A stretch of 63,834 nucleotides of DNA, filler included, from Craspedostauros australis (lineage: Eukaryota), in NCBI GenBank assembly GCA_030167865.1. It is 9 parts of 9 records of this genome, joined end to end, with 100 filler letters (N's around TTAATTAATTAA, not from the genome) between each part and the next. Parts side by side here need not be neighbours in the genome. Positions count along the whole stretch, not along the records: positions 17,587 to 40,384 come from JALAGF010004436.1; 8 more parts are not named here. One strand, given 5' to 3'. Shown piece after piece: positions 1 to 32,696 of the stretch. The first letter of the stretch is position 1. Every line of letters starts with the position of its first letter. The translations under genes were made by a program, and so were the position numbers. The notes below the pieces were generated by a model. It did not search any database and was not told where the DNA came from. It saw nothing but the letters and a program-made list of their open reading frames with translations.

Positions 1-2914
1 TACTCATACTACAACCGCAGCACAACAGATACAACGAGCATCGCATCGGCGGAGGCACCTTTGGAATGAAGCAAAAAATGTGACTGTTTTTGTGTCGGCG
101 TGGCGACGATGTGTGCGTGCGCATGTGATGATGTGTGTGATGTCCACAAGTGGAAAATGTCAATCGATTCCGGAGCAGCTAACGGTGTATAACGTGTTCC
201 AAACGAACGAGGAGGAAGGAAAAAGCTGGAGACACCAACGTGAATGGGCACCAACCGTTATTAACTCGGAACACCAAAGAACCTTCGGAAAAACTACCTC
301 GTGGAAGGATACGTTTGACCCCTACGACTCCAAATATTTGATGGTCCATAAAACTTAAACTATGAACTTTAAGTTTCTGGGTAATTTTCCTGTTGCTATG
401 GAGACTATAATGAGTTGGTTTATATGCTTGGTTGTGTTGAAATCGAAGAAAAATTGCCACTCTACTTTACCAAAGGTTGGTCGACTCACTCACCCGGGTC
501 TTATGACGATGTCTCGAGGGAGCGTAGATTAGATGTGATCACGCCAGTGATAGCTGAAAGGCTCCCTTGCTTCAAACCGCGATAGTGAGACATGCATTTG
601 CTTCTGACAGGAAGTGTCAAAGTGTTCGGACCATCTCATCCATGCAGGGATCATGGTCGTGAACAAAGCTCGCAGCGATGGTTTTGTTGCACCACTCCGC
701 GATAGTTTGCCTTCGTCATGTTCTTTGGTAAAATATCAAGTTCGGTGTTGATTCGTTGGTATTCTGGGCATGCGCGGGTGTGAATTCAGAGAAAGGCAGA
801 GAGAGAGAGTGGAGGCGTGTTTGTGGAGCCGGCGGTGGTATCTCTCAGGGAGCCATGTTGTTTCCGGGTTGATGATGTCCCAAGAGTGCAGATGGGCGTT
901 TGTCATCGTCGATGATCGTGTCAGAGCCTGCAGACGAGATTGTGTTGTTGCCGATGATCTGAATGATTGGGTGGAATGGACACACAGACAGACGGAAAGG
1001 CCAAACCGATACGCACACAAACATCCAAAAATGCAGACATATATTTAGGCCATTCAAACAGACGTATTGTTGATTTCGTGTCCACAGACGTTCGTGTTGT
1101 CAAACAGACATTCGGTGTCGGTACGAAATACTTTCCTAAAACAGACAGACACACTTGGCTGACCAAACGAAATGAAAGTTTCTGTACCAGGAGGTTCGCC
1201 CCCGTGTCGGTTGCGCCACCTGAACTCAGGAGGCAGATCGGAGGTACTGATACGTAGTTGTACGTGAGCGCATGGAGTGTAAATCAGAAGCACGCACGAC
1301 GTGAGAGACACTTGGTGTGATCGTTTCTCTGCCTGCTCCTCACGTTGTTGAGTTGCAACGCGGCGCGGCCAGTTGGATCCAGGCCAGCAACTGCTTGCAA
1401 AGCATTCGTACGAACAGGCGGTGTCTGCGCCGCACTTCGTTCCCTTGCATTCGCTGCGATACGACAATGCTGGTGCAGCAACGACGGTGTGGATGAAAAG
1501 CTTATGTCCTTGTATGGAGCCGTTCTTTTCCATTGTACGATCAATAGATGTGAGAGGAGAAACAGCACAAAGAGGAAAAATTCTTCCGACTGGTCGTTGC
1601 AATTTGCGATCAAGTGGTCCGTCACGAAGATCACCTCCCTTCTTGAGCTCTTGGCTTGACATGGTCACAAAGCAGAACGCAACATTGCATCCATCCAATC
1701 CCGTTTTCGTTGCTTCGAAGGAGGATCCGATTCTTCCGTCAACGCTTCAGACCCACCATGTCTTGCGATACAACGGGGTCTGCTGTTACACAGTTTGTTG
1801 GAAGACGACTTTGTAGGCGATTCCAATCGATGGATGGATGGATGGATGAAGGGATGGTCTTGGTTGGATCCGCGTCGCCGTTTCATCTCTTGCCATCACG
1901 TCGACTGATCTGCTCCAACCTTCTCCTGGACTCTTCAATCTCTTGCATACGAGGACGCACTCGATCTGTTGTTCTGCCATGGACACGGAAAGGAAAGGAG
2001 GTGTTGAAGAAACATGGCCCGCAGCGATTCGGTGCTGTGGCCATCATGTTCGTACCGACACTTGCACGAACGTTGAGTGTAACCGACGAACGTTGCCCAG
2101 GTTTCTCTCTCGTGATTGCATCAGTGATTGATTGGCCTTTGGTTGTGGCCAATTCCTAATCTCGGACAAAGTGCACGACTTCCACAGCCGCTGCGTGCTA
2201 AATACGCCTTTCTTCGTGGAAGGGAAGTATGTTCATTCGAAGGTGTTCGTCATGACATTCTGCCCAGGTTATTTGCGTTTCGCCATAAATTTTGAAAAAC
2301 TAATCGATGTTGTTAACAATTAAGACTTTGTCATTGTCGTTTTGCTGTCGCCACCTTCTAAGTGTCTCGCCGTATTAATGACCGTTGGCATCACGATCTG
2401 TTGGCAAGGAGATGCCCAACGCGGAAGGAGGCGCAGGTTTTCGCCTTGGTTGGTTGCGGGATCGGCCGAAATTTGGCAGCGTGTTGGGTGTGCGTCTTCT
2501 GCCAGTGTCGTGGTCGTGCTGTTTGCGTTCGGTGTGGACTCTGCGAATGGTTCACGCGTCCAACCGCGCTGTTTTGTTTGGTTGTTGCTGTTTCTTGGCC
2601 TTCTGCCTCTCTTGCTCTGCCTCATTCTTGGTCTGCTTTCCTCCCTCCATTCACTTGACTTCACCCACTCCGCAGCAAAGCAAAGCAAAGCACAGCGAGT
2701 AACATCCACTCCAGACCATCACGCCTCGACAGAAGACCGACCCTTGTCCTTTGACACAGAAAGTTCTTCAGACACCCAACATTGACACGGTACAAGCCCA
2801 AACGGGCCTATAGTGTCAATACAATTGCTGCTATTGCTACTCCACCACCAAGACCAACAAAACTAACAACAAGACCAAGAACAACACCAAGAATAAGAAG
2901 AACACTGATCGACC

Positions 2915-14640: not shown

Positions 14641-15025
14641 CCACATAGCAGCATCTCCTCCACAGCCATTCCACAAGAATACCCACAATAGGGTGAGAGT
14701 CTTGATCCGCCATGGTCGCTCTTCGTGTTTCGTTGTTGTTTTGTTTTTTCCCGTCTCGTTTTTTGGCGTGTGTGCGACGCAACAAAACAGTCAAAGCGCG
14801 TGTTTTCACGTTGCACAGAGGAAGCGTGTGCAGGTTTATCACGTGACCGGAAGTGTGGGGGTGAAACCTGTCTGTTCTGAAAATTATGACTGTGTGGAGC
14901 GATCATTTGCTCGATGAGGGTCCTACTCGTGGTTTGTGCGGTATCGTCTGTCCATCGACACTCCTTGTTCTGATTCGGCCAGATTCGGGAATTGGCACTA
15001 TATCTGCACAAACCAGTGTCACATC

Positions 15026-15438
15026 TGTCGGAACGTGTGTGTACTCGGATGTGTATGCATCAGTCACACTTGCTTGCCGCTATCTAGACTATTTGGTGGC
15101 GGAATCACGACACAAAACTATGACGTCACAGCGATACCATCGCTGTACCACGAGGACACCGCGATACTACGACGCCAGGACACCGCGATACCAGCGAATA
15201 CCACAGTATCCACCACACCTGACGTCACATCAAGGCCTTACCTACCAGGTCTACAGGAATGCAATATGTTTTAAACACTCCATCAGATTCGATCAATCAT
15301 CAGATTCAACAAAACCCGAGAACGGAACAACGACGAGACAACGAGAGAAAGACAACAACGTTGATGATCAAGTCAACATCAACGAGCAACATGAGAGCAA
15401 TGTGCATGGAGGTGCAAGAGGATTGCACCAAGCAATGA
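15026..15438 (+). mobile_element. Start of a related LTR-like sequence, cut by the contig end
   Basis: TGTCGGAACGTG...GTGTATGCATCAGTCACACTTGCT resembles the reverse complement of the 14141 end of the solo LTR (TGTCGGGATGTA...GTATGTGCATCGTTCACCTGCT). Confidence 0.5.
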
Positions 15439-15538
15439 NNNNNNNNNNNNNNNNNNNNNNNNNNNNNNNNNNNNNNNNNNNNTTAATTAATTAANNNNNN
15501 NNNNNNNNNNNNNNNNNNNNNNNNNNNNNNNNNNNNNN
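15439..15538. other. Artificial contig spacer (44 N + TTAATTAATTAA + 44 N); also at 17487-17586, 40385-40484, 42681-42780, 45915-46014, 49190-49289, 58442-58541, 62680-62779
   Basis: Same 100-bp layout eight times; the 12-mer puts stops in all six frames. Confidence 0.98.
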
Positions 15539-17486
15539 TCAACCAGCCATCACGTTCGAATATGGAGACTATGAAACATCCAACTCCGTTGGTATCAGAT
15601 CCCAACATGTGGTGGAATGCAACGATGAAATTCAAGACAACGATTAGCGCACGCTAAATCTCTAACAATAGCGACACCCGTCGACCAATCAGAAATCTCC
15701 ACTTTTCTTACCTTTTCCGTTCCGAANNNNNNNNNNNNNNNNNNNNNNNNNNNNNNNNNNNNNNNNNNNNNNNNNNNNNNNNNNNNNNNNNNNNNNNNNN
15801 NNNNNNNNNNNNNNNNNNNNNNNNNNNNNNNNNNNNNNNNNNNNNNNNNNNNNNNNNNNNNNNNNNNNNNNNNNNNNNNNNNNNNNGACACGTGCGAATC
15901 TTGCCATGACCTTCTCAAGTGAATACGATCAATCGTGTGATCGTACTACTAGCAACATCGTGAGAAGACGTAATCCACAACACGGGCTATCGCGGTGTTT
16001 TGGTTCATTGACTTTTGCAAATCCTCTTCACGCAGTAACACGCACATTTGTCGTGTTGTCTTCGTGTTAATTTTACTTGCAATTACATGAGATCATGTCA
16101 TGCCTCTCTCATGCTCACAGTTCTCAAGAAGACAATCTTGTGAGCTTGACAGCATTCCTACTACCATACGAATAATACAGTAAACAAACACTCTCCTCAC
16201 CAACAACAACGACTTGATCACTCTACGTTCTCGGTGCGGTATCCTTCACACCCATCTACGATTACGTTTTAACAGATTAACAGTCGCAAGCTTTCACCTA
16301 CTGATTTGATTGCGTGACAATCCATCCATCCTTCATCCCTCGTCCATCCACGAGCGATCCCTTCACCTTCCATCACGTGACGACGTGATNNNNNNNNNNN
16401 NNNNNNNNNNNNNNNNNNNNNNNNNNNNNNNNNNNNNNNNNNNNNNNNNNNNNNNNNNNNNNNNNNNNNNNNNNNNNNNNNNNNNNNNNNNNNNNNTCCC
16501 GCACCAGAAGACGATTCAGTCAGTGCACTCCAGCCTCAGCTATCCTTCAGCCTCCAGCATCCGCATCCACTCTCTCCATCCATCCATCGCCAATCATGTT
16601 GACTCCTGAGATGGACCTCGCCACCTTGGATCACATCCTCGGTGTCATCGGCATCCCTTCGGACTCCACTCCTCGCGACATCATCGCCCATGCGGACATC
16701 GTCAGCCCTCTTGACCTTGTCTCGCTCACCAAAGATGATCTTCGCAGCTTCCAACTTCGCGATGAGATCGATGATGGCGAAACCATCGTCGCCGTACTCG
16801 GAGTGAACCACATCCGCAAGATCCTCAACCTTGGCAAGTGGTATCTCACCCAAGCCATCCTCGACAACAACACCTGGAACGATCTCGATCGTACCTTGTT
16901 CATGGCGTTCACAGCTGAGCAGAGCAACCCTTCCCTTCCGTCTTTGCACTCGCATTCGACTGCAAGCTCTCCCATTCCGTCTCTGATGGGCATGGGCCAC
17001 CACACCACTCCGGCATCCACATTCCGTCCTGTGGCTGAAGAACCTCCGCATGTGAACTTCGCATTCGATCCTTCGGCTTCAGTGCCTGATCCTGCCTTCC
17101 CGCAACCACCTGTGACTCCATCCATGGCACCCTCTTCCAACTTCCAAGGTGTCCANNNNNNNNNNNNNNNNNNNNNNNNNNNNNNNNNNNNNNNNNNNNN
17201 NNNNNNNNNNNNNNNNNNNNNNNNNNNNNNNNNNNNNNNNNNNNNNNNNNNNNNNNNNNNNNNNNNNNNNNNNNNNNNNNNNNNNNNNNNNNNNNNNNNN
17301 NNNNNNNNNNNNNNNATGGATTTCATGCCGGCACCCAAGGACGAGGCCTTCTTCGCGAGCCAGAATCGCTACCTCTTCGCCGTGCTCACTGAGCATGTCA
17401 AAACTTCCAAGAGTCGGCGCATCATCCGTGCCTACAAGAAGTCTTGCGATGGCCGTGCGGCCTACGCCGATCTCGTCGATAGCTAC
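15539..17486 (+). mobile_element. 5' part of a diatom Copia (CoDi-like) retrotransposon: putative LTR/leader and Gag ORF from 16596
   Basis: Gag-like text LDHILGVIGI...DIVSPLDLVSL and FASQNRYLFAVLTEHVKTSKSRRIIRAYKKSCDGRAAYADLVDSY resembles diatom Copia Gag as I recall it. Short gapped contig typical of repeats. Confidence 0.7.
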
Positions 17487-18053
17487 NNNNNNNNNNNNNN
17501 NNNNNNNNNNNNNNNNNNNNNNNNNNNNNNTTAATTAATTAANNNNNNNNNNNNNNNNNNNNNNNNNNNNNNNNNNNNNNNNNNNNGTGTTGTGTTGTGC
17601 ATCATGAGTGTGTGCACAAGATTTTGTCGTGTTTCGATCCATTTTCGTCACTTTCGACCGTTTCACTCCAAATTGTTGTTGCTTTGTATTGGAGCGAAAC
17701 CAGTCACGAGGACTCGAATGAGTCACGATCAGCAGTAAACAACAACAACCACAGAAGACTCAACGCAAAAAAAGAGAAACCAAAACACAGAAGACACAAT
17801 CCATCAAACAACACATTGGATACGAACTCATACCCAACTACCGCCACCGTTTCAATACAGACATCGAATTGCCACTCACATTCATCACACAGTGCATGGT
17901 ACTCATATTATACCAATACAAGCTATTGAAGACATACCATCGATATCTCTGCCACAGATAGCTCAGACTGCACACTTCCTTGACAGCCAATCCAACGCCA
18001 ATCGTTCAACGCCAAAAGACAATCGTCCAGCAACCATCGACCATCCTCTCAAA

Positions 18054-19547
18054 ATGGAGAATGTTACGAGCGAAGCACTCATTGATGCTGCCCGTGCAGG
18101 TGACTTGTCAGTGTTTAAGGAATGGAAGAAGCAGAACGAGACACGGAATGAAAGAGTTAATGTCAACCAGGTTAAAGACTGGCTTGGTCAGATTCCCCTT
18201 CATTTGGCATGCCGCAAAGGCCACCTGGAGTGTGTGAAGTACCTCATCGAATCATGTGGGGCCAATGCCGACTGCAAACACAACAATGGTGACACTCCCC
18301 TTCATTGGGCATGCTACAACGGCCACCTGGAGTGTGTGAAGTACCTCATCAAATCAGGTGAGGCGAACATCAACTGCCAAGACAGAAATGGTTGGACTCC
18401 CCTTCATTACGCATGCTGCAACGACCAGCCGGAGTGTGTCAAGTACCTCATTGAATCATGTGAGGCGGACATCAACTGCCAAAACAACCAAGGTGAAACT
18501 CCCCTTCATTGGGCATGCCGCAACAGCCACCCGGAATGTATGGAGTCCCTCATTAGAGGACTTTCGCCTTCAGCTCACCCACAACTGCACCAACTGCAGC
18601 AACGCTTACAACAAAACGAGCAAGAAACTGAACACAAACACAGTACCCACAAGAGGACCAACATCAGCATTGGAGAAGACCGACTCAAATCCTTCTAAAC
18701 CGACAACAGGGCAGACACCATCTTCTTGTGTGGACAGGGCAACTAACAACAACTAACCAAGGCAAACGCCCAAGCCCTCATCATCACACTCCCATCCATT
18801 GAGACACTGATCGACAAAGGAACTCAACTTCACCGCGCGAATGATGACGCTCACGATGGAACTGAACCCATCCAAACAACCATCCCTCTTCCCAATCTTC
18901 AACCAAAACACATCCGATACGTCCTCCAATGCATCTACACAGCCAAGATATCCTTCAATGACAGCGTTCGTGACAACGCTGCTGCTCACGTCAGCGCTCA
19001 CATCGGCGCTCACACCAGCGCTCACCACGATACAGATGCCTCTCACCAGCCAACTCCCACCCTCAATGGACAGGACGATCGGCAACAGCTGATCCTTGTG
19101 GCCGACGAGTTCGGCTTCTGGCGACTCAAGCTTGTTCTTGAAGCAGAGTTGGTCCGCAAGCATCTCACAGAGGACACCATGATAGATGTGTTGATATTCC
19201 CCGATCAACACAACTGCTTGGTGTTGAAGGATGCAGCAATGAGAATGGCAGCTGAAAGTGAGAAGGATACGTTCACTCATCCAGATTTAAGCAAACTGAT
19301 TCTACATCCCCAACTGATGAAAGACATTGATGTCCTCCGTGGTGGGAGAACGGAGAGTGATGGTATTGATGATGAGTATGGTGGCATGTTCATGGTGGAG
19401 CTGCACAAGGTTATAGATGAGGATGAGGGTGCAACACAAGTGGATTCATACATGGATCGGGCAACATTGGTGGACTTCGTCCGCTCTATGACTACCAAAT
19501 CATCCAAAATGATTGAGACGGACGGCGCTGCTGGAGAAGAGGAGTGA
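18054..19547 (+). pseudogene. Ankyrin-repeat + BTB/POZ(-BACK-like) gene with two in-frame TAA stops (18696-18698, 18744-18746)
   Basis: Four 34-aa ankyrin repeats (TPLHWACYNGHLECVKYLI). The same frame continues through the stops into ADTIFLCG...IRYVLQCIYT...LILVADEFGFWRLKLVLEAELV...HNCLVLKDAAM, a BTB-type pattern. Confidence 0.8.
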
Positions 19548-19940
19548 AGTGCCACACCATTTCATACCATGCCAAACCAAATCATACCATAACAGAAGTC
19601 TTCGAGAAGTGAACGCCTGGCGAAATTGAGTTGATGGACATCTTTCACATCTGATTCTTCGCCGGCACCTCGTCGTGTTCGAGTGTTCTTAGGATTAATC
19701 ATACCCAAGGAAGATGGATAGATGTAGTCGTGCTCTGTGTATGGTATGTAAGTGTTTGTACTATTATACGTATGAGTGGTGAACATGATGGTGGAGCACG
19801 CAAATGCACTCCTTCCTCCCAGAATTGACAGATTTGTTCTCCCACTCTCCTTCCTCACCTCACGCCTATTCTTGCGGAGTGCTCGGGTTCTTCTCTTGTC
19901 TCATCAACTGCTTCTCCTCCTCCTCCTCCTTTCTCTCTCT

Positions 19941-22900
19941 CTAGAAACCTTCTGACAGGAAATTGTATGGATTTTCGTACAGACGAATATTCTCGTCTCT
20001 CGTCCTGTACTTGTAGCACCATGTGCGTTCTGCTGGGAACTTGGACGGCCAGTCCTGGCATTCGCAGAATTCCTTGCGGTGCAGCTCCTGGTAGTATTGG
20101 AGAGGACGCGCCAGCCACACAGCTTCGGGGCGATCCTCACGAGGAGCACCGGCTGTGTCTGATTGACAATGCTCGTTGATGCGCCAGGCCATCAACCGCT
20201 CCAGCTCCCTCATCTGATGTGGGGCGACTCGGATGGGATCCTTCATCACGCGCCAATGGACCTTCTCGTAGCACGGTGGCACAGTCTGGGTGCCTTCGTA
20301 CCGGAAGTAGTACTCGGTGCCGACCTTGATCATCCACTCGTACGGCCACCACTGGACGAGGCTGTAGTTCTCGTCGATGCCTTCACCATTGAAGGCAAGA
20401 TTACGCTGAAACTTGTGGAAGATCTCCTCGAAGTACGCCTCGTCATCGAAGTCCTTCGGTATGTCGTTCTCGGAACGCACAATGTAGTCGCCGTGTGACG
20501 TCTCAACGACGACATCGTCGGGACCCAAAGGCCGATCCTCCTGTCTGTAGTACTCCCGAGCTTCATCCTTCGAAAGCTGCCTGGGTCCATGCTCAGGTAG
20601 CTGTGCCATCATGTACGCCTCGTTGATGGTGCTCCGTTGGCGTTCGTGCTCCTCGTAGAGCCGGCGGTTCCTGCCACTACCGGTGTTCGAATCTTTATCG
20701 AGAACGCAGTAGTCCATCATGGTGTTGTCTTCTTCACCACCGCTGCAGCCAGGAACTGGCTCGAAGGGCACCCTGCGCTGATGGCACTTCAGGCCAGGCG
20801 CGCAGTCGGTATCCGTGTCGCAATCTCCGACGCACAGCAAGAGTGGCCGGGAGGTTGGTGGTGGGTTCCATCCCAATGAGATGACTGCCGGCAACGCCAC
20901 GGGGACTGAGGTGGGGTTGGTCGTTGGTGAGGTCGTTGGTGTGCTGGTTGGTGCGCTGGTTGGTTGCGCGGTGGGTTCGGCAGGTCCAGCGGTTGGCACG
21001 GGAACTGGAATGGAGGTGAGGGAGTTGCTTTGTGGTGGCTGGGAAACGATCGTGCGATCCGTATCCACGATGCAATAGTCGGCGAGCAGCTTGTCTTCTT
21101 CTCCACCAGCGCAACCTGGCACCGGGACGAACCCCGTGTTGCGCTGGAAGCAAACCAAGCCCTCCTCGCAGTCGCTGTCCAGATCACAGTCTCCCTGACA
21201 TTCGGTGAGAGTGACTTTGGGGCTCCACCCGATCCACTCCACCCCCAGCGTTTCGGACTGGGTTGGGTTTGATGTCGGTGCACTGGTTGGGGCAGCGCTG
21301 GTTCGAGTTGGTGGTTCCGTCGGATCTTCTGTCGGTGTGTCTGTCGGCACGTCCGTTGGCGACGTGCTTGGAGAGGTGGATGGAACACCACTTGAACTTG
21401 ATGATGGTCCATCCGTAGGCGAAAACGTCGGCGTTGCGGTTGGTTGGCTGGTGGGTGAACTCGTCGGACCAGCGGTTGGTGATTTTGTTGGTGCATCTGT
21501 GGGGAACGCAGTTGGTACCGTTGTTGGTGGGCTCGTCGGACCAGCGGTTGGCGATTTCGTTGGTGCATCTGTGGGTGATGCGGTGGGCAACGCAGTTGGT
21601 ACCGTTGTTGGTGGACTCGATGGGCTTGTGGTGGGCTGTTCGGTTGCCGTTTTGGTTGGCGCCCCGGTCGGAGGGATGGGGTCGATGATGACGAGGTCCG
21701 GATCACGCACGCAGTAGTCGATGAGCGACGGGTCGCTGTCGCCACCAATGCATCCAGGAACATCTGTATATGGTTGATTGCGCTGAAAGCAAATCAAGTC
21801 ATCGTCGCAATCTCCATCATTATCGCAATCACCTTGGCAAGGATTCAATATTTCGGCGGGATTCCACCCGAGCACTTCGAGGGGCTTGGGCTCATAGAGG
21901 TCGTCGTTTCGGTCGTTGCTTGTTGGTGCTTCCGAAGTGTCCGCGGTCGGTTCGCCAGTTGGCCCATTCGTGGGATCATTTGTGGGATCGCTTGTGGGTT
22001 GCGAAGTTGGTTCGCCTGTTGGCTCGCCAGTTGGCCCATTCGTGGGATCGCTTGTGGGCTGCGAAGTTGGTTCGCCTGTTGGCTCGCCAGTTGGCCCATT
22101 CGTGGGATCGCTTGTGGGCTGCGAAGTTGGTTCGCCTCGTGGTGATGATGTTGGAGAGGCAGTCGGTTGCGACGTAGGCGGGTCGGTGGGAAGGGCTGGG
22201 AACGTACAGAAATCGACCACGTTGTTCTCATTCTCGCCATTCAGGCAACCTGGGACGGGGGTCCTCAGGTACAGCCGTTGAAAGCAGATCATTTCGCCTT
22301 TGCAATCCGCGTCGGTATCGCAATCTCCCTGGCATTCATCGAGCGGCGTCTGCGGTGACCACCCAAGATTGGCGACACTCTTCATGCTATCGGAGCGTGG
22401 GAATACCGAGGGTTCTGCAGACGGCAGCACTGTGGCGGTCGGCAAAACGGACGGAAATGCCGTCGAGATCGATGATGGAATGGTCGATGGGAATGCACTC
22501 GGGGAACTAGATGGTTGTGTGGAGTTGCCGATCGTTGGCCAAACGGTTGGCGTTGCACTCGGATTGATGGATGGGCTGTCGCTGTCATTGCTCGTCGGCG
22601 TTGCCGATGGGACGACGGACGGCTTCATCGATGGTGGATTGGTTGGTCCGATCGTGTACCCACTCCCTTTCGGATCCAGAATGCAGTAGTCGCTTTTGGT
22701 ATCATCCACCTCCCCACCGATGCATCCGGGCACGGCTTCGAATTCATCACGTTGGAAGCAGGTGAGGCCCTCAGCGCACTGGACATCGTTGTCGCAATCG
22801 CCTTCGCAGAAGTGCAAGGGAATGACATCCGATGGCGGTGTCCCACCGTAGTCCACGAGCTGTTTCGGTCTGAGTGGTCCAAAGGTCGGCTGAGATGTCA

Positions 22901-24701
22901 CTGTGGGGCTTCCTGTTGGCGGATCGGTCGGCTGGATCCAAGGCTCGTCAGCGTAGGGGTCGAAGATGCAGAAGTCGCTCTTTTTGTCGTACGTCTCACC
23001 GCCGATGCATCCAGGAATTCCCTCGTAGGCGTCGCGGCGGTGGCACATGAGGCCGTTTTCGCAGTCGCTGTTGAAATCGCAGTCCCCCTGACACAACGAC
23101 AGAGGGAGTTTGTCGTCGTCGGGATCACCGCCGAAGTCTTCGATCGGGACGGGATCGGGGGGATCCAACGGGGCCAGCGTGGGGACGTCGAATTCGGAAG
23201 AGTCACCGTTTTCATCTTCGTACAGGTCATCCACTGTGCGTTCTTGACCGCGGTACAGCTCGCAAAACTTGTACACAGGGGCCGGCGGCAATCCGCATTC
23301 TGCTCTCTGCTTCTCCTCCTCTGCCCGGAACTTGCAAATGAGCTTGTCAAGGTATGGCCATGGTGGCTGGTTCTCGTAATCCTGCATGAAGATGGAGATG
23401 TGCCCCATCTTGTTGTTGCTGTTTCTGACGGAATAAAAATGCGCCAGCGTGACTTCCGCGGCGTACCTCTTGCCTTCTTGGGTGTGTTCGCTGGGAACTC
23501 TGATATCGGTCCGTGACAGGAGGAAGAACTTGGGAAATCCCTTGCTATAATCCATCTTGGGATACTTTCTCTCTCCGCTCGGGTTGGCGCAGTTGATGTC
23601 GCCATTGGATAAGGTTGGTGTGTGAATTTGTAGTGCGTGCCTCGATATCTCGAATGAATCTTTCATGTCCTCCCAGTCGCAGGATCCATCCAGATATGAA
23701 ATCCTGTTGTGATTCAGCATGGTATTGCAAGTAGAGTGCATTTGGATAGTGCCATACGTTGAAAGACAGGAGTGGCGGTGATAGTAAGCGAGAGCGTCCG
23801 AAAACAGAGCCAAGAAGTTGTGAGGTTGAGCGATTGCAAGTGTGAGAAACCACACGTTAGTGGTTGTTTCCCTCATGGATCATCACTGTTGCGTAGGAAC
23901 AATTCCAAACGCATGACATGGCATGGCATGAGTTGCATTGTGCGACATCATCATCATCATCATCATCATCACGAACGGGTGTCATACTGCTTGGACGGAG
24001 AGCAGACAATGGGGAACGCACCAATGCCAGTCGCGGCACTCCTTCTCATCGGGATGACCTGCGATGGCGCGGTTGCGATTCAAGTCGATGGGAGATTGAC
24101 GATGTTGTTTGCAGTCTTCACTCCTATCTTCGGGACACCATCGGCATCGATTTCCGGGGAAGCTCCAGCCCTTTGCGTGCTCGAAATAATTCGGCCAGCC
24201 GGGCTGCACGTTTGTTGGGATGAGGAGTGTTTGAGGCATCGGTCGTGTCCGTGCATTGCGAAGCGGTCGAAAAGACGAGATGCGGCAAAATAAAGGAGAT
24301 CAAAATAGAGTGGAGTAGATTCGAAGACGTGTGAGTTTGGAGAAGGGTGATGGAATCAGGAGATGGTGGCGGAGTTCGTGATGGTCACACACGCGTCCCA
24401 TATGACGTTGTTGATTGCCTGTTCGAGAATGTGGCACTCTTGAGAGAGAAAGAGAGAGAGAGAGGCCGAGAGACCACGCCATTTGTATTCACAGCCAAGA
24501 TCACACCGTGGTATTCTTCAGCATGTTCGTGTCACGTACGCAGGTTCCAACGCCGCTGTTACAGCTGACTTCGTCCCAGTCTTCGGGTCCGAAATCATTC
24601 CCTGTCGTTGCCAAGTAATTGAATTGGTCTTCTGCTGCGTACACGGCGCTATGCGGTGCCCACAGGAGCGCAGCGAATGCGCTTCCAATCAAGATTCTCA
24701 T
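19941..24701 (-). CDS. Secreted alpha-carbonic-anhydrase-fold protein (likely acatalytic) split by six frustulin ACR domains, 1368 aa; exons 24701-24540, 24203-24022, 23703-19941
   Basis: Signal peptide MRILIGSAFAALLWAPHSAVYA. CA motifs GPEDW, QSPIDL, PSEHTQEGKRYAAEVTLAH, YFRYEGTQTVPPCYEKVHWRVMKDPI and RPLQ. Six C(Q/E/V)GDCD..C..C.(Q/R)R..PGC..D(F/Y)C domains. Two GT-AG introns keep the frame. Confidence 0.9.
21946..22137 (-). repeat. Coding 60-bp tandem repeat, about 3 copies (PTSQPTSDPTNGPTGEPTGE)
   Basis: Sequence at 22021 and 22081 is nearly identical at a 60-nt offset; the third copy has a 12-nt addition. Confidence 0.9.
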
Positions 24702-26331
24702 TCTGTAGTCGTCGTTGCTTGGTTGTTCGACCTCTTCTTGATTCCTTCAGTTGCGCAGCGCAATGAGAAAAGGAAAGAGCGCGATGTCGATGTTGATGAC
24801 TCTCCGTGGTCGTCTTCTGTTCTTCGAATCGTTCTGTCACTCTGTGAAATAAGTGACGAGAAGGTTGTGGATGTTCGATTTCGATGTGCTATCACTGACG
24901 CTGACACTGACGCTGAATAGCTGATGTCTCTGCCAGGGTCACAGGTGCTTCACAATCGTGCCCGGTCGACGCAACGATGCTGATTCGATGATGTTGATAG
25001 GATGATCTCGATACTGCGGATATGAGTGTTTGGATTGGTGCTGTATGGCACAAGTGCTCCGATCGTCCCCTCCTGCTATGTTCGTCGTCGTCAAGTGAGA
25101 CTTGGTCTCTTTGAATCAACCAAATATTGGTGGTGTGTTGCTGCCTCTCCTACTGCTCGATGTCGTGGCAAATTTACACACGATTGCTGCCAACACACTC
25201 GGATTGCAGTCCTATCATGTGCTGTGGCAACTCTCAATGCCCAACCTCCTTCTGTTATTGCCGAGTTGTGGTCGTGTTGCACGATGGAATGATGAATCAA
25301 TGTGCGTGGGCTGTGTTGGAGGTGCACGTTGCTGAGTTGTTGTTCAAGTGGGATGATGGGAGAGCACCATTGCATTCGCTTTCTTTCCCGTCATTTCCTT
25401 TCTTTTCGGGAGGGGTGTGGTGACACGAACATGTGTCGCGAAATCAGCGCAAAACGACGCAAGTGCGGCCGCAACTTGGCGCATCGTCTGACTTTCCAAA
25501 GTGCTCGGCAGGCGTGCCTATCGTGTCTTTGGACACGCGGGCAACAAGACAGTTAGATGTTGTTTACTGCCGCCATAAGTATTAATTCCGTCGTCTTTGT
25601 TCGAAAAGCTCTGCTTGGCTCACACTCATGTGTGTGGAAGAGAAATGTGAGCTCCTCCCATCGCCGATTCTTGTTCCAACCAACGTGCCGACTCGCATTT
25701 CCAGTGACTCGTGCCTTCATTTGAACCGACCTTGCAACGGTTCACCAAATTCAACCGTTACGTTCGCTCCATTCAAATCTATTGATTTCCAAGCATTCCA
25801 GTTTTAGTCACATGAGTCATAAATCGATTGATTTAGACTCATACGAGTACACGAAGTAGTCCTTCTTGTCTTGGCGAGTTCGCGCCATTTTCTTTGGACA
25901 ACTTCGCCGGCGCAACAACACTTGGAAAGGGCGGACCACGCAGACAGTCAAAAAGCACGACAAACAACGAGGTAAGCAACAACCAGGCGATTTTGTTTGC
26001 GCTGTTGGCGATTGCGCGTGAATTCACACACAAGAAAAAGCAAAAAACTCCATCCAACACACTGCCCACAAACACGGTACAACACGACGCAACAACGGGA
26101 TCACAAGTGGAGGCTTCAAGAGCATCAAGGCATCAGAGCAACGATCTGGCCTGACATTGTGCGCAACTAGCATCAACAAGCGGCAAGTGGCAAGCGGCAA
26201 GTTGCACGGCTCCACCTTTGTCTTGCAACATCGTCGTGGCGTTGACTCGGCCTGTGTAGTGTGCACCATCTCGCTTCTCTGTTGGTGTACCGGCACCATA
26301 CTTGTCCGTTGTCACCGAAACATCCAACAGC

Positions 26332-29300
26332 ATGAAGACAAAGGACAAGACGAAGGTCGCCTTGTTCCGAGGCATCGTCCTCAAGGATGTCAAATCCGCC
26401 CTTGCCAAGTCGAAGGAGCTGGGAGGGGACCAGGCACGGCTCGAAGTCACAGACAAGGACATCTACGTCGGCGATGGCAATTGGAAGATCTCATGGAAAT
26501 CCGTCACCGACGTCCATTTCATTATGCCCGACAGCGAACATGGTGATTTCCTCGGCATGGAAGATTCTGTGGAACGCGGTGACGTCAACGACAGTGACGA
26601 CAATGGCAATCATAGGGACCAGTCTGGCATCGATGTCACCAACGCCATGGGATTCAGGCTGGACGCCAAAAAGTACATCCTCACAGCAGAGGGCGTGATG
26701 GATCGTCGCACGCTGCAGCTGATGCGTTTCGTCCACGCGCGTTGGCAGAAGATTCTGCGCAAGCAGCAGAAACGCATCGAGGAAGAGGAACGTCGCGAAC
26801 GGCAGGAGCAGAGAGATGAACGCCAGCGGCGCCAGGATCGCATGATGTCGTCGCGTGGGCTCTACCAATCCAAGCAGAGCCGTAAGATGAACCACTTCCT
26901 CAACGCCAATCGGCAGAACATGGAGATCAACCGACAGCACGTTGAGAATTGGGAAGATGCAGAGGACGATGTTGCCATAGTTCCGGACGATGCTCACGCA
27001 GAAGTGGACGAGAAGGCGGCGGAGGAAGGCTCTGATGCATCGCACGCAGTCGCAGATATCGATGTCACGCAGACCAATAGCAGCGGCGACAACGAGAGCA
27101 ACAAAAAGGCAGCCGACGATTCCCTCATCGTAAGCACCAAGCATGTCAACGATGGTGGCGACGATGGTGGCAACGACGACGACGACGACGACGATGAGCA
27201 TGAGTTCATGGGAGATGACGAACTTGATGCCTCTCCATCAGATTTGCTCAAGGCAAACGAGCACGATGGAAGCAGCACGAGGGGAGCCCAAACCGCCGAG
27301 ACTTCCGATGCTCCGTCGACACCGGACCGAAAGCAACTGAAGAAGAAGAACAAGAAGAAACGAGGAAGTAGTGCTGATGGGGAACCGGACGGAGACAAGC
27401 CGAAACGCAGACGCAGATTGGTGCGAAATCGTGGTCGAATCTCCGACGACACGGACGAGGATGACGACGAGGATGCACATTTGTTCGATTCGCCACCGAT
27501 GACCACGCCGCAGCGTGGACAGCGCATCGTGTCTCCATTCACCGGCACTCGTCTCTTCCAAAACGACGACGACGACGAAGATGACGACAACGACAACGAA
27601 GATGAGGACAACCACGAAGGTGTGGTCGTCCACGGTGTCCACGGTGTCCGTGATGACGCCACCGCGACACACACCCACAATGAAGACCACAACATCGAGG
27701 GACAACGCACCAGCAATGAAACCATCAGCAAAAACGAGCCAACAGCTGCGTCAAAGCCCGAAGCGAAAAGGAGTGCCAAAGCAACATCCAAACTCAATCG
27801 CAAGTCCAAGTCAAAATCCACAAAAGACGCGGAGATCAATGTCAAGAAGACAAACAAATCATCAGCGAGGGATACAGGCACAGCACTTGCCAGCCTTGGC
27901 GCAAAGGAAGGACAAAGCAAGGGCCAGAAGAGCATCATGAACTACTTCGGCACGCCCAAGACGATTGCCCGACCGAAACTGCAACCGAAACCCATGAACT
28001 TGCTGCCAACAGTTTGCACGAACGGGAACAGACAAGATGGGACGCACACTTGCGACCATCTTCTCGTGTCGTCAACCGAACCAACTGATGAGACAGAAGC
28101 CACCGATGATACATCGGACACGACGCAAGAACATGGTGAGCCTCAAGATCATGCCGGTCAACAAGAGCAGGAACTCCAACAGAAAACACGCTCCCACCAT
28201 CCTTTCTTTGCTCCACGATCTACTGTGGGCAAGCCGCAGATCAGTACGAACGATGTTGATGACAAGAGTGATTTGTCCGATACTTCGCAGGAGGCGGACC
28301 ACGAGCAGGGGGTTGTCAACGAATTGACACTGCAAGCCTCGGATGGAGAAAGCAGCGACGAAATCAGTGACTTTGAAGAGATCAATCTGGATCCAAATCA
28401 TGGAACTGGAGGCGAAGATACCGGCAACCACCTTGGCGGCATCAGTGCGAGCGATGCTGATGATCAGATCAACGATGACGACAATGGCGATCATGACGAG
28501 GATGCCACAGAAACACCCAACTTCGATGAAGCCATCGATGGCGATAGCGTCGGCGGCAGCAGCGGTAGATCGACGGTTGCAAGTGGTACCCATTCCCTGA
28601 TCAGCATGTTGTCCGGTCAGCTGAGGCAATCCTCGTTGTCCTCCGCACCGCCTTTCAGCGACGCAGGATCATCTCGCACAACCTCCGCGAATGCATCTCC
28701 CCAACGATCCGTCCATCATTCATCTCCATCTCGATATGACATGCCCAGCATCCATGGCGAATCTACTGCTGCTAACGACGATGGTGATGATGATCATGAT
28801 CATGGTCTTGACAACCACGACGGCGGCAACAGCAACGGTAACGGTAACAACAGCAGCGACCATCACGACCATGAGGAAAATGATGACACTGTGGGACCTG
28901 AGGACCCTGTTGCCAACAGGAAACGAACCAGCACCATGTTCTCACGACCTTCGCAACCCAGCAGCGCTCTCGGAACCATCAAGAACCGCTTCAAACGACC
29001 GCGTATTGCGAGGGGCAAGCCAATCGCAACGCCCAAGGCATCACGGGCCATCAACTTCAATCCTGCGGACACTTGCAGGCGCGTTCTTGGCGATGACCGG
29101 AACGATGAAGTTGACAACGAACACCAAACGCAACCTGAGCAATTCAGACACACGCAAGAACCAACCAAGTCCAAAACACGAAAGCTTGCGCGTCAGCCTC
29201 GGAACAACTCTGTTTCCAGATACCTTTCACCCACGTCGCGGTCGCCAGTGCGCGACTCGTTACACACCGTCTTTGCCTCTCGCCCCCAACTCGAAACCAT

Positions 29301-32172: not shown

Positions 32173-32696
32173 AACTGATCCTGGCACTGCCGCTACTCTT
32201 AGCTCGTACTGATGCCGTCACTGGTGGTATTACGGCTGTCTGGGACCTATTGTGCGTTGTGGAGAATTGTCCGTTGTCAATGGTTGGTTGATGTAGTTGG
32301 TCGAGGTTGTTGTCGTGATGTTGGCGCGCAATGTAATGCTCTGTGCTGTTCCATGACGAGGGGCGCCGAAATGAATTCTTGTTTTGTTCTGACGAATCTG
32401 GCCGTTGGCGAAAGTATTGGCGACCATGACGAAGAGCAGACGGCCGATTTCGGAACGAGCACAATCTCACGAAACAGCTCACCCAACGAACAAAAACGCA
32501 TGAGGCGGATCCTCCTTCCTGTTCGAACTGTACCTCCCACTTCTTCCCTCTCGAAACACAGTCCTCGATCGATGACATTACATTATATTCTATTCTATTC
32601 TATAATATTAGGGACACCAAGATAAACAGACCAAAGCATACAAGGAACACAGAGCACAATTGAACCGAGCATTGAATATAATAGCAGAAAGAATTG

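What the first reader, a model, noticed from the sequence alone, without database searches (positions are those of the whole stretch)
19941..24701. Nacrein-like architecture in a diatom: alpha-carbonic-anhydrase fold split by six frustulin domains
Seen: a secreted 1368-aa protein. The CA N-terminal part (GPEDW, QSPIDL, PSEH...EVTLAH) and C-terminal part (YEGTQTVPPC...VHWRV...PI...RPLQ) are separated by roughly 950-1000 aa (about 23290-20370). The insert holds six acidic cysteine-rich CxGDCD domains and Pro/Thr/Ser linkers. Known: these ACR domains define frustulins, Ca2+-binding diatom cell-wall coat proteins, and mollusc-shell nacrein is an alpha-CA split by a low-complexity insert. Inference: a convergent cell-wall scaffold that attaches a CA fold to the frustule coat. 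I do not recall a description of this fusion but cannot search.
Basis: partly seen in the sequence, partly recalled or inferred. Interest (0 to 1): 0.9.

Follow-up and report, generated by a model that had tools for sequence, protein, structure and literature searches.

The report
Zinc-less carbonic-anhydrase fold carrying frustulin domains
A diatom gene encodes a probably secreted protein in which a carbonic-anhydrase-type fold, lacking its zinc-binding histidines, is interrupted by six cell-wall (frustulin-type) domains, so it is probably a wall or surface scaffold and not an enzyme.

Summary
A three-exon minus-strand gene (24701-19941) encodes 1368 aa. The N- and C-terminal parts of an alpha-carbonic-anhydrase (CA) fold are separated by about 975 aa. 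That insert holds six acidic cysteine-rich (ACR) domains with both frustulin hexapeptide motifs, joined by Pro/Thr/Ser linkers.

An AlphaFold model of a homologue superposes as one CA fold (Z 11-12). The window's two halves are predicted to pack together (0.82, best control 0.00).

The interpretation needs three corrections.
1. All three zinc-ligand histidines are replaced (H94 to D181, H96 to R183, H119 to T200). No family member keeps more than one. The module is therefore CA-related and acatalytic by the canonical mechanism, unlike nacrein.
2. The split is older than the ACR domains. A family named only from pennate diatoms carries varied inserts at this loop, and ACR modules mark one clade (support 100/98).
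3. A conserved RxL motif follows the insert (R in 46 of 49 rows). RxL is the proposed processing site of diatom biosilica proteins, which suggests cleavage into two chains.

I found no description in nine literature searches. One genome paper appears to count such proteins as CO2-concentrating CAs. Function and location remain inferred. No RNA evidence confirms the junctions.

The parts
24540..24701 (-). Exon 1 (aa 1-54). It holds the start codon at 24701-24699, a hydrophobic N-terminus (aa 1-22, 24636-24701) that is a probable signal peptide, and the FNY...GPEDW start of the family's conserved N-terminal region.
   Evidence: Sequence and GT donor at 24539; translation; the only hydrophobic 19-aa windows start at aa 1-5; gapless alignment with homologues.
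24204..24539 (-). Intron 1 (336 nt, GT..AG), containing a CT-rich simple repeat.
   Evidence: No RNA evidence. Supported only by homologue alignment across the junction.
24022..24203 (-). Exon 2 (aa 55-115), with a Cys-rich stretch and the QSPIDL strand of the CA fold.
   Evidence: Weak Pfam Carb_anhydrase match to profile positions 8-29 (14.6 bits, below the cut-off of 27).
23704..24021 (-). Intron 2 (318 nt, GT..AG), containing a (CAT)8.7 microsatellite at 23946-23971.
   Evidence: Junction supported by homologue alignment.
19941..23703 (-). Exon 3 (aa 115-1368 plus the stop at 19941-19943). It is one uninterrupted frame holding the rest of the N-terminal CA half, the whole insert and the C-terminal CA half.
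   Evidence: ORF list; translation.
23298..23702 (-). Exon-3 portion of the N-terminal CA-like half (aa 116-250). It ends in a long helix (LDKLICKFRAEEEKQRAEC).
   Evidence: HMMER alignments to solved CAs. hhalign of 40 family N-parts against 56 canonical CA domains gave probability 97.8% and E 5.4e-12. The equivalent region of homologue P0005 has pLDDT 88-95.
23448..23507 (-). The former zinc site. D181 (23505-23507) stands at the H94 position, R183 (23499-23501) at H96 and T200 (23448-23450) at H119. E187 (E106), H188 (H107), E198 (E117) and H203 (H122) are kept.
   Evidence: Column counts in A2; ungapped profile-profile alignment; printed alignments. The numbering of human CA II is recalled.
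22947..23147 (-). ACR domain 1 (aa 301-367; CQGDCD, IPGCIG; 6 Cys).
22662..22862 (-). ACR domain 2 (aa 396-462; CEGDCD, VPGCIG; 6 Cys).
22188..22388 (-). ACR domain 3 (aa 554-620; CQGDCD, VPGCLN; 6 Cys).
21693..21893 (-). ACR domain 4 (aa 719-785; CQGDCD, VPGCIG; 6 Cys).
21054..21254 (-). ACR domain 5 (aa 932-998; CQGDCD, VPGCAG; 6 Cys). This is the copy that was modelled.
   Evidence: AlphaFold model with pLDDT 94.5 and pTM 0.82.
20688..20888 (-). ACR domain 6 (aa 1054-1120; CVGDCD, VPGCSG; 6 Cys).
21460..22137 (-). The two longest Pro/Thr/Ser linkers, which contain DNA tandem repeats: 72 bp x2.0 at 21460-21600 (84% matches) and 60 bp x2.7 at 21977-22137 (98% matches). Linkers are 54-68% P+T+S.
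   Evidence: Pfam PT repeat at 88.1 bits in 6 stretches.
20658..20666 (-). R1128-R-L1130 (GRNRRL|YEE), an RxL motif directly after the last ACR domain and before the C-terminal conserved block. It is a candidate proteolytic processing site.
   Evidence: In alignment A2 the R is present in 46 of 49 rows and L at +2 in 38 of 49, within an otherwise variable linker. The meaning of RxL comes from PMC4557024 and PMC5647440 (passages). Cleavage is inferred.
19944..20657 (-). C-terminal block (aa 1131-1368). It comprises a family-specific lead-in, the C-terminal CA-like half (WWPYEW...YFRYEGTQTVPPCYEKVHWRVMKDPIRV...RPLQ) and a conserved Cys-containing tail (FCECQDWPSKF...NPYNF).
   Evidence: Pfam Carb_anhydrase at 51.7 bits. 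There are 31 invariant columns, all in this block, across 49 sequences. It is predicted to pack on the N-half. The database's only gene call for this window here is a 258-aa fragment of it (P0241).
19742..20766 (-). Stretch covered at 100% identity by one 1029-nt contig of public run X1, whose kind is a guess ('RNA?'). It spans the end of ACR 6, the C-terminal half and 199 nt beyond the stop.
   Evidence: This is weak: the run is not on record as RNA.

Best explanation
This is a single gene for a large, acidic (pI 4.35), probably secreted glycoprotein of a pennate diatom.

Its framework is an alpha-carbonic-anhydrase-type fold that has lost all three zinc-binding histidines (D181, R183, T200). 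It cannot hydrate CO2 by the canonical mechanism. It is a CA-related module of the kind that elsewhere serves as a binding or structural domain.

The surface loop between the long helix that ends the N-terminal half and the strands of the C-terminal half carries a nested insert of about 975 aa. The insert is six frustulin-type ACR modules, each small, held by six cysteines and 15-25% Asp+Glu. They are strung on Pro/Thr/Ser-rich, probably O-glycosylated spacers. Both ends of the insert return to one fold, so the ACR array forms a closed loop anchored on the CA-like domain.

Inferred working:
- The ACR modules bind Ca2+ and tie the protein into the organic coat of the frustule, as frustulins do.
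- The CA-like domain supplies a second, non-enzymatic binding surface.
- A conserved RxL motif just after the insert is a likely site of endoproteolytic processing. Cleavage would leave two chains held together by the shared fold.

Status of each step:
- Shown: gene structure, domain content, loss of the zinc ligands and family conservation.
- Predicted: assembly of the halves into one fold.
- Inferred: secretion, wall location, Ca2+ binding and cleavage.
For: Gene and domains.
- Three exons with GT..AG introns give 1368 aa with six CxGDCD motifs.
- The spliced protein aligns without gaps across both junctions with 8 homologues.

CA fold.
- Pfam PF00194 scores 51.7 bits against a cut-off of 27.
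- A profile of 42 family members matched 235 distinct PDB sequences at E<=1e-3. All 60 shown are CAs or CA-fold proteins.
- The AlphaFold model of homologue P0005 (1148 aa, an MMETSP transcript marked complete) was aligned by VIA-align to 925 chains, 376 of them at Z>=8. The best rows are alpha-CAs at Z 12.0, rmsd 3.4-4.1 and 190-211 residues aligned.
- Human CA II entry 1yo0 gives Z 11.1 with 214 of 258 residues aligned, model residues 19..1108 against chain 3..260. One superposition therefore uses both halves.
- The window's own halves as two chains score ipSAE 0.82 (runs 0.82, 0.83, 0.81). The best of 3 controls is 0.00. The runs agree in at least 73% of contacts, and the partner's pLDDT is at least 46. 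The mark was reached by 51 of 78 solved complexes and 2 of 108 mismatched pairs.

Zinc site.
- In A2, His stands at the H94 position in 0 of 46 rows, at H96 in 6 of 46 and at H119 in 4 of 45. No row has more than one. The window reads D/R/T.
- The profile-profile alignment to 56 canonical domains is ungapped through this region. It puts the family's conserved His on H122.
- A looser pattern scan found His at both the H94 and H96 positions in 29 domains of the tandem multi-CA proteins, which serves as a positive control. The stricter pattern picked 56 such domains as the canonical set.

ACR domains.
- The definition by the hexapeptides CQGDCD and VPGCSG comes from PMC4712521 (passages).
- Six invariant Cys occur across 20 aligned ACR sequences.
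- The ACR model has pLDDT 94.5.
- ACR domains have pI about 4.05-4.26.

Family.
- 28 of the 62 best hits carry the N-half motif, then ACRs, then the C-half motif, in that order.
- The ACR-bearing rows form one clade of 27 of 47 rows with support 100/98.

RxL.
- R occurs in 46 of 49 rows.
- RxL sites are described in frustulins, silaffins, cingulins and silacidins (PMC4557024 and PMC5647440, passages).
Against: - No experimental or RNA evidence exists for this gene. One contig of uncertain kind covers only 19742-20766.
- Three of the five printed HMMER alignments (6eki; 4c3t and 8w7x) open a 3-residue gap that would put the family's His on H119. One ligand might then be kept. H94 and H96 are lost in every alignment.
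- The homologue model is only moderate. Its mean pLDDT is 68, the C-half has stretches below 50 (1028-1041, 1095-1106), and rmsd to CAs is about 4 A.
- In the two-chain test the partner's own fold is uncertain (pLDDT 46-48) and my alignment was not used. Halves of a fold with many solved structures can pass from memory.
- The C-terminal half holds all 31 invariant columns across 49 sequences. That is more than a passive scaffold would seem to need, so a new activity or a specific ligand is possible.
- RxL is a short motif. Seven R.L occur in this protein outside the signal sequence. PMC5647440 states that cleavage at such sites 'remains to be proven'.
- No sequence named frustulin was retrieved for direct comparison.
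- ACR modules also occur in diatom proteins with WAP, ricin-B, DUF839 and other domains. Their presence alone does not prove a frustule location.
Confidence: 0.6

Rival explanations
1. It is a working extracellular carbonic anhydrase tethered to the cell wall. It supplies CO2/HCO3- at the surface as part of the CO2-concentrating mechanism. This is the nacrein-like enzyme reading, and the reading implied for pennate alpha-CA expansions in the Nitzschia inconspicua genome paper.
For: - Pfam assigns the protein to Carb_anhydrase above the cut-off.
- The fold is retained.
- Second-shell residues are conserved: E106 in 42 of 46 rows, E117 in 46 of 46, H107 in 46 of 46, T199 in 39 of 49 and W209 in 45 of 49.
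- PMC8329260 retrieved alpha-CAs by PF00194 and treats the expansion as CCM capacity (passages and a supplement sheet).
Against: - The three zinc ligands read D, R and T in the window. No family member keeps more than one His.
- An Arg or Lys at the H96 position would occupy or repel the metal site.
- PMC8329260 contains no occurrence of the word 'zinc', so it did not check the site.
Confidence: 0.06
2. The remodelled CA-like cavity has a new specific job. It is either a binding pocket for an anionic wall or mucilage component (sulfated polysaccharide or the silica surface) or a new catalytic site. The protein then belongs to adhesion or mucilage and not to the frustule coat proper.
For: - All 31 invariant columns of the 49-sequence alignment lie in the C-terminal block. 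That points to constraint beyond fold stability.
- A basic residue replaces H96 in 27 of 46 rows (K 25, R 2).
- The acatalytic CA-like domains of vaccinia D8 and of PTPRG/PTPRZ superpose as well as the enzymes do (Z 11.0-11.2). That D8 binds chondroitin sulfate and that PTPRZ/G bind contactins is recalled knowledge.
- All named family members are pennate diatoms.
- ACR modules are shared with lectin-type and other surface-protein domains.
Against: - No ligand evidence of any kind exists.
- Model coordinates could not be inspected, so the make-up of the cavity is unknown.
- The loop around T199 is poorly predicted (pLDDT below 50 at 1028-1041 of P0005).
- This is compatible with the best explanation and refines it. 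It is not a strict alternative.
Confidence: 0.2
3. The architecture is an annotation or assembly artefact. It would be two genes (a CA-like gene interrupted by a frustulin gene), or the ACR region is an intron removed from the mature mRNA.
For: - No RNA-seq support was obtained for this locus.
- The database's own call for the window is only a 258-aa C-terminal fragment (P0241).
- A close relative pair differs in ACR number: P0260 has one degenerate ACR, P0003 has three.
Against: - The frame is open for 3762 nt across N-half, insert and C-half.
- Neither half alone is a complete CA fold.
- 28 of the 62 best hits show the same order of parts. They include MMETSP transcriptome sequences: P0005 is marked complete, and P0027 and P0033 are also transcripts.
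- ACR-free relatives also have inserts at this loop.
- The ACR domains are conserved at the protein level.
Confidence: 0.03

Closest known systems
Nacrein and nacrein-like shell-matrix proteins of molluscs
   Same: Both are secreted alpha-CA-fold proteins whose CA domain is interrupted between the N-terminal part (QSPI...SEH.) and the C-terminal part (Y.Y.G...PPC) by a long acidic, mineral- or Ca2+-related insert (PMC4066178, passages).
   Different: - Nacrein-like proteins keep the three zinc histidines and are reported to be active. Here all three are substituted.
- The nacrein insert is a Gly-X-Asn or D/E low-complexity repeat. Here it is six folded six-Cys modules plus PT linkers.
- The lineage and the mineral differ (silica wall against CaCO3 shell).
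- Whether the insertion loop is the same was not tested.
Frustulins (diatom cell-wall coat glycoproteins)
   Same: The ACR domains carry both hexapeptide motifs. They are joined by proline-rich linkers, follow an N-terminal presequence, are acidic and are followed by an RxL motif (PMC4712521 and PMC4557024, passages).
   Different: - Frustulins are linear arrays of ACR domains with polyglycine or proline linkers and a Trp-rich domain. Here the array is nested inside another fold.
- There is no polyglycine and no Trp-rich domain.
- No named frustulin was available for a sequence test.
Acatalytic CA-related domains (human CA VIII/X/XI, the CA-like domains of PTPRG/PTPRZ, vaccinia D8)
   Same: All have an alpha-CA fold with zinc-ligand histidines substituted, used as a binding module. 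PTPRG, PTPRZ and D8 structures superpose on the homologue model at Z 11.0-11.2. The functions of these proteins are recalled, not tested.
   Different: - The loss is independent and in a different kingdom.
- Those domains are contiguous, without a nested insert.
- No ligand is known here.
- The enzymes score equally well (Z 11-12), so there is no special kinship.
Diatom alpha-CAs counted in CO2-concentrating-mechanism inventories (for example the clade 'EC1' of PMC8329260)
   Same: They are retrieved by the same Pfam model and predicted to enter the secretory pathway (passages and a supplement sheet). Two family members (P0019, P0331) come from Nitzschia inconspicua and are named 'Eukaryotic-type carbonic anhydrase'.
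   Different: - This family lacks the zinc site and carries 49-1025 extra residues in the fold (labels).
- That P0019 and P0331 are among that paper's 11 loci is my inference. The supplement gives no lengths or matching accessions.

Membership tests
Alpha-carbonic anhydrase (Pfam PF00194), as a fold family | Sequence match above the curated threshold | tested here: met
   51.7 bits against a cut-off of 27 on the exon-3 ORF, though only over profile positions 172-230. The N-terminal match is 14.6 bits, below the cut-off.
Alpha-carbonic anhydrase (Pfam PF00194), as a fold family | A single ten-stranded CA-type fold formed by both parts | tested here: met
   This rests on prediction only. The homologue model gives Z 11-12 to alpha-CAs, with one superposition spanning residues 19..1108. 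The window's halves score ipSAE 0.82, best control 0.00, at least 73% contact agreement and partner pLDDT at least 46. The mark was reached by 51 of 78 solved complexes and 2 of 108 mismatched pairs, and the pass may owe to solved CA structures.
Alpha-carbonic anhydrase, as an enzyme | Three zinc-coordinating histidines (H94, H96, H119 of human CA II; numbering recalled) | tested here: not met
   The window reads D181, R183 and T200. Family counts of His are 0 of 46, 6 of 46 and 4 of 45, and never more than one per protein. Three of five HMMER alignments would keep H119, but none keeps H94 or H96.
Alpha-carbonic anhydrase, as an enzyme | CO2 hydration activity | not testable with these tools
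   Needs recombinant protein.
Nacrein-like proteins | CA domain interrupted by an inserted repeat region | tested here: met
   About 975 aa are inserted between PSEH and YFRYEG. Whether it is the same loop as in nacrein was not tested.
Nacrein-like proteins | Conserved peptides QSPIN, GSEHS and Y.Y.GSLTTPPC together with three zinc histidines (PMC4066178) | tested here: not met
   QSPIDL, PSEHT and YEGTQTVPPC are present. The three histidines are absent.
Nacrein-like proteins | The insert is a Gly-X-Asn or acidic low-complexity repeat | tested here: not met
   The insert consists of six folded Cys-rich modules and PT linkers.
Frustulins | ACR domains with the hexapeptides CQGDCD and VPGCSG (PMC4712521) | tested here: met
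   CQGDCD occurs four times, with one CEGDCD and one CVGDCD. The second motif reads VPGCSG, VPGCAG, VPGCIG (twice), IPGCIG and VPGCLN. Six Cys are invariant.
Frustulins | At least three of five features: presequence, ACR, proline-rich, polyglycine and Trp-rich domains (criterion of PMC4712521) | tested here: inconclusive
   ACR and proline-rich linkers are present. Polyglycine and a Trp-rich domain were not seen. The presequence is inferred only from hydrophobicity, so the count is 2 certain plus 1 inferred.
Frustulins | Sequence homology to a protein named frustulin | not tested
   None of the 120 listed hits of the ACR search carries that name. No frustulin sequence was at hand.
Frustulins | Ca2+ binding and EDTA-extractable location in the wall coat | not testable with these tools
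   Needs biochemistry and localisation.
Acatalytic CA-related proteins (as a functional class, not a clade) | CA fold with one or more zinc ligands substituted | tested here: met

The most novel reading that the evidence does not exclude
Pennate diatoms have an undescribed protein family in which a zinc-less carbonic-anhydrase fold acts as a clasp. One surface loop accepts interchangeable cysteine-rich wall modules: helical CxCC modules in several ACR-free lineages (two more follow the ACR array in most ACR-bearing relatives), with frustulin ACR arrays added in one clade. The precursor is cut at a conserved RxL site into two chains that stay joined through the shared fold. The re-lined, strongly conserved former active-site cavity, with a basic residue in place of H96, binds an anionic wall component such as silica or sulfated polysaccharide. 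That would link the organic coat to the mineral or to mucilage.
Probability: 0.15. Interest if true: 0.8.

Novelty: new variant of a known kind. Interest (0 to 1): 0.6.

Why it matters
1. Gene counts. Inventories of diatom CO2-concentrating genes count Pfam PF00194 hits as carbonic anhydrases. PMC8329260 (passages) reads an alpha-CA expansion as extra CCM capacity. If this family is among those hits, as the two Nitzschia inconspicua members suggest, part of that expansion is not enzymatic.

2. A new handle on the wall. Frustulin-type ACR modules nested inside another fold, with copy number from 1 to 6 between relatives and near-identical DNA repeats in the linkers, give a fresh view of how diatom wall coats are built and diversify.

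3. A natural domain-insertion case. A roughly 1000-residue multi-domain insert is tolerated in one loop of a compact fold, and a conserved candidate cleavage site follows it. This makes a directly testable case of two-chain assembly.

4. Convergence. The parallel with mollusc nacrein is real at the level of topology, but it stops at the active site.

Tried and rejected
- RNA evidence. The run search listed no holder on record as RNA. The single run laid (X1, kind guessed) gave one contig over 19742-20766 and no cover elsewhere. The junctions remain unconfirmed by RNA.
- Whole genome. None is held for this window.
- Earlier notes of this scan. Nothing was found by place, words or sequence.
- Literature. 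Nine searches were run. None returned a paper that describes a CA fold combined with ACR domains. One search was too broad (769 papers) and uninformative. Kroger et al. 1994 (PMC395402) is not held, so the original ACR definition was taken second-hand from PMC4712521.
- ACR fold. Foldseek against the PDB gave no match at E<=0.001. The best was E 0.42, to small disulfide-knot peptides and IGFBP or Dickkopf-type domains. VIA-align against 48,161 chains gave 19 at Z>=2 and none at Z>=5, with a best of 3.4. That is at most a hint of a knottin-like arrangement, and no family can be named.
- ESM Atlas. The C-half gave CA clusters at 0.88-0.89. The ACR region gave an unnamed Bacillariophyta cluster at 0.89. 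Both are below 0.9 and count as leads only.
- First reading of the zinc site. I first took the His of EVTLAH to be H119. Spacing from SEH (+15, not +12) and the profile-profile alignment corrected this.
- Unsplit relatives. The 'shorter' search gave 12 of 120 listed proteins with both halves. All 12 still carry extra residues between the halves, 58 to 390 over a canonical spacing of 86. The other 108 are fragments with one half. No unsplit form was seen, but fragments dominate that list.
- Neighbouring genes. These are ankyrin-repeat proteins, a UCH-domain protein and a Tyr-phosphatase-like ORF. They give no functional context.

Full report
THE GENE. The region holds one long minus-strand frame (19941-23879). 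Reading the sequence upstream and splicing it in a script gives three exons: 24701-24540, 24203-24022 and 23703-19941. Both introns (336 and 318 nt) are GT..AG. I obtained no RNA support. The run search listed no holder on record as RNA. The one run laid, whose kind is only guessed, gave a single 1029-nt contig identical to 19742-20766. The junctions are supported by comparison instead: the spliced product aligns without gaps across both junctions with eight homologues. The only hydrophobic segment is the N-terminus, which fits a signal peptide. No membrane segment or C-terminal anchor is apparent.

DOMAIN CONTENT. Pfam finds Carb_anhydrase (51.7 bits, cut-off 27) only at profile positions 172-230, near the C-terminus. 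It gives a sub-threshold match of exon 2 to profile positions 8-29, and PT repeats in between. Six CxGDCD motifs lie at aa 319, 414, 572, 737, 950 and 1072, each followed about 25 residues later by [VI]PGCxG (VPGCLN in the third). The only other CxGDCD match in the window's six-frame translation, at 4008, is isolated and lacks the second hexapeptide. Each ACR unit has six cysteines, 15-25% Asp+Glu and pI about 4.05-4.26. The linkers are 54-68% Pro+Thr+Ser. The linkers contain DNA tandem repeats, 60 bp x2.7 at 98% matches and 72 bp x2.0, which are signs of recent expansion. An AlphaFold model of ACR 5 is confident (pLDDT 94.5) but has no significant neighbour in the PDB. The best Foldseek E is 0.42 and the best VIA Z is 3.4 of 48,161 chains, both to small disulfide-knot peptides.

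ONE FOLD FROM TWO HALVES. I tested this in two ways.
- With the insert. The full-length homologue P0005 is an MMETSP transcript marked complete (1148 aa, four ACRs). It was modelled from a 42-sequence alignment. Mean pLDDT is 68. The N-half scores 88-95, the ACRs 83-93, and the C-half mostly 70-89 with two stretches below 50. Foldseek's best 50 rows are all CA-fold proteins, 20 of them at E<=0.001. VIA-align aligned 925 chains, 376 at Z>=8. The best rows are alpha-CAs at Z 12.0, rmsd 3.4-4.1 and 190-211 residues aligned. For human CA II entry 1yo0, 214 of 258 residues align at Z 11.1, with model residues 19..1108 against chain residues 3..260. The N-half contributes only about 150 residues, so the same rigid superposition must include the C-half.
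- Without the insert. The window's own halves (exon-3 residues 1-165 and 1040-1253) were folded as two chains. They scored ipSAE 0.82 (three runs 0.82, 0.83, 0.81). The best of three controls was 0.00. There were 250-274 contacts and at least 73% contact agreement, with partner pLDDT at least 46. The mark was reached by 51 of 78 solved complexes and 2 of 108 mismatched pairs. The caveats are that the partner's own fold is uncertain, my alignment was not used, and halves of a much-solved fold can pass from memory.
Both results are predictions, but they agree.

THE ZINC SITE IS GONE. HMMER alignments to solved bacterial CAs place the window's TDIRVPSEH against FHFHAPSEH. The two histidines of the H-x-H pair are therefore D181 and R183. 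For the third ligand the printed alignments disagree. Two are ungapped (4c3t, 4x5s) and put the window's T200 on the ligand and its His on the next conserved His. Three open a 3-residue gap that puts the His on the ligand (6eki; 4c3t and 8w7x). Two observations favour the ungapped version:
- The spacing from SEH is the same in family and enzymes: E at +10 and His at +15, with the ligand His of the enzymes at +12.
- A profile-profile comparison of 40 family N-parts with 56 canonical CA domains is ungapped through this stretch (hhalign probability 97.8%, E 5.4e-12).
Counting columns in the 49-sequence alignment A2, His stands at the H94 position in 0 of 46 rows, at H96 in 6 of 46 and at H119 in 4 of 45. 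No protein has more than one. Second-shell and structural residues are kept: E106 in 42 of 46, H107 in 46 of 46, E117 in 46 of 46, H122 in 45 of 45, T199 in 39 of 49 and W209 in 45 of 49. A looser pattern scan found His at both the H94 and H96 positions in 29 domains of unrelated tandem multi-CA proteins from the same search, a positive control. Residue numbers are those of human CA II, which I recall and did not fetch. The protein is thus a CA-related, canonically acatalytic module.

THE FAMILY.
- The word-indexed search gave 193 proteins at E<=1e-3 among 8000 scored candidates. The best is only 51% identical.
- Of the 62 best, 28 carry the N-half motif, 3-5 ACR motifs and the C-half motif in that order. 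Most of the others are truncated at one end.
- Named sources are all pennate diatoms. They are Nitzschia spp., Fragilariopsis kerguelensis, Cylindrotheca fusiformis, Bacillariaceae MAGs, Fistulifera solaris, Synedropsis, Grammatophora and Pseudo-nitzschia. Most records are unnamed, so this is not a proven range.
- ACR-free relatives carry other things at the same loop. These include two to four copies of a different Cys-rich module (..PPIDC...CC...C..CC..), confidently predicted as helical in P0005 (residues 780-920, pLDDT about 90). Others carry only 58-154 extra residues.
- The window's protein lacks the CxCC modules and has the most ACRs seen together with both halves.
- A maximum-likelihood tree of the CA core has 47 rows and 335 columns. 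All ACR-bearing rows fall in one clade (27 rows, support 100/98). The window's protein is its first branch, and the rest are joined at only 89/68. The Fistulifera-type ACR-free proteins are the sister group. The apparent exception, P0260, has one degenerate ACR (CQGNCN) against three in its 94%-identical relative P0003, so ACR number changes quickly.
- A full HMMER scan of 1.84 billion representatives with the C-half gave 482 proteins at E<=1e-3, 155 at 1e-10 and 33 at 1e-30.
- A search among shorter proteins found no unsplit form. 12 of 120 had both halves, and all 12 carried an insert. That list is dominated by fragments.
- ACR modules are promiscuous. They occur in diatom proteins with WAP, ricin-B, DUF839, LRR, VWA and other domains.

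A CONSERVED RxL SITE. Directly after the last insert module, in an otherwise variable linker, the alignment has an Arg in 46 of 49 rows with Leu two positions on in 38 of 49. In the window this is R1128-R-L1130 (GRNRRL|YEE). Even the short, module-free relatives have it (R.RNLR). RxL motifs are described in silaffins, silacidins, cingulins and frustulins as probable endoprotease sites. PMC5647440 notes that this 'remains to be proven' (passages). I therefore propose, as inference, that the precursor is cut here and that the mature protein is a two-chain CA-like fold. Seven R.L motifs occur in the protein outside the signal sequence, so the argument rests on positional conservation.

MOST LIKELY WORKING. 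The protein is a secreted, acidic, heavily glycosylated wall or surface protein. A zinc-less CA-type fold anchors both ends of a loop of six Ca2+-binding ACR modules. The ACR array would integrate into the frustule coat as frustulins do (PMC4557024, passages). The CA-like domain would offer a non-enzymatic binding surface.
- Shown: architecture, loss of the ligands and family conservation.
- Predicted: fold assembly.
- Inferred: secretion, location, Ca2+ binding and cleavage.
All 31 invariant columns of the alignment lie in the C-terminal block. That hints at a specific ligand or a new activity, which I keep as the bolder reading.

KNOWN OR NEW. Nine literature searches returned no description of a CA fold combined with ACR domains, nor of this zinc-less family. 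Databases call its members 'Eukaryotic-type carbonic anhydrase' or hypothetical. The Nitzschia inconspicua genome paper retrieved alpha-CAs by PF00194 and reads their expansion as added CO2-concentrating capacity. It never mentions zinc (passages and one supplement sheet). Two family members come from that genome, so they are probably among its 11 loci. I could not map identifiers, so this is inference. Subscription-journal papers, including the original frustulin papers, were not available.

VERDICT. I classify the finding as a new variant of known kinds: an acatalytic CA-related domain combined with frustulin-type modules by domain insertion. Interest is moderate to high.

Noticed in passing
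Homologues P0005 (residues about 780-920), P0044, P0047, P0050 and P0051; absent from the window protein: A second, unnamed Cys-rich module (PPIDC...R.C...CC...RS...C...Y..FGD...C..CC) occurs in 2-4 copies in the insert of most family members. It is predicted as helical with pLDDT about 90 and has no Pfam family.
   Followed up: partly
P0370, P0374, P0375, P0381, P0419, P0446 and others: Very long proteins (1200-3000 aa) carry 4-9 tandem CA domains. In some, most domains keep the H-x-H pair. In others the domains are a mixture of intact and degenerate sites. Their origin is unknown because the library has no names.
   Followed up: no
window 19944-20717 (P0241): The protein collection's only entry for this locus is a 258-aa C-terminal fragment. 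The full 1368-aa product is therefore absent from that collection, and the best full-length relative is only 51% identical.
   Followed up: partly
P0260 against P0003: Two proteins are 94% identical in the N-terminal half and 83% over the aligned C-terminal 465 residues. They differ by the presence of ACR 2 and 3 (one degenerate ACR against three). This is either rapid copy-number change or a collapsed assembly or gene model.
   Followed up: partly
window 12782-18698 (+ strand): Several ORFs with ankyrin repeats lie in a row upstream (12782-13456, 14027-14917, 17739-18698). A large ORF with a UCH ubiquitin-hydrolase domain lies at 26260-30132, and a Tyr-phosphatase-like ORF at 32685-33503.
   Followed up: no
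whole window: The window contains 1475 N (an assembly gap). Overall G+C is 51%.
   Followed up: no
window 23946-23971 and 24440-24470: There are microsatellites in both introns: (CAT)8.7 in intron 2 and a CT-rich run in intron 1.
   Followed up: no
Hits: ACR-type modules are combined in diatoms with WAP (PF00095), ricin-B (PF00652), DUF839 (PF05787), PF02977, LRR, VWA and TSP1 domains. The ACR unit is a general extracellular building block, not a marker of classical frustulins alone.
   Followed up: partly
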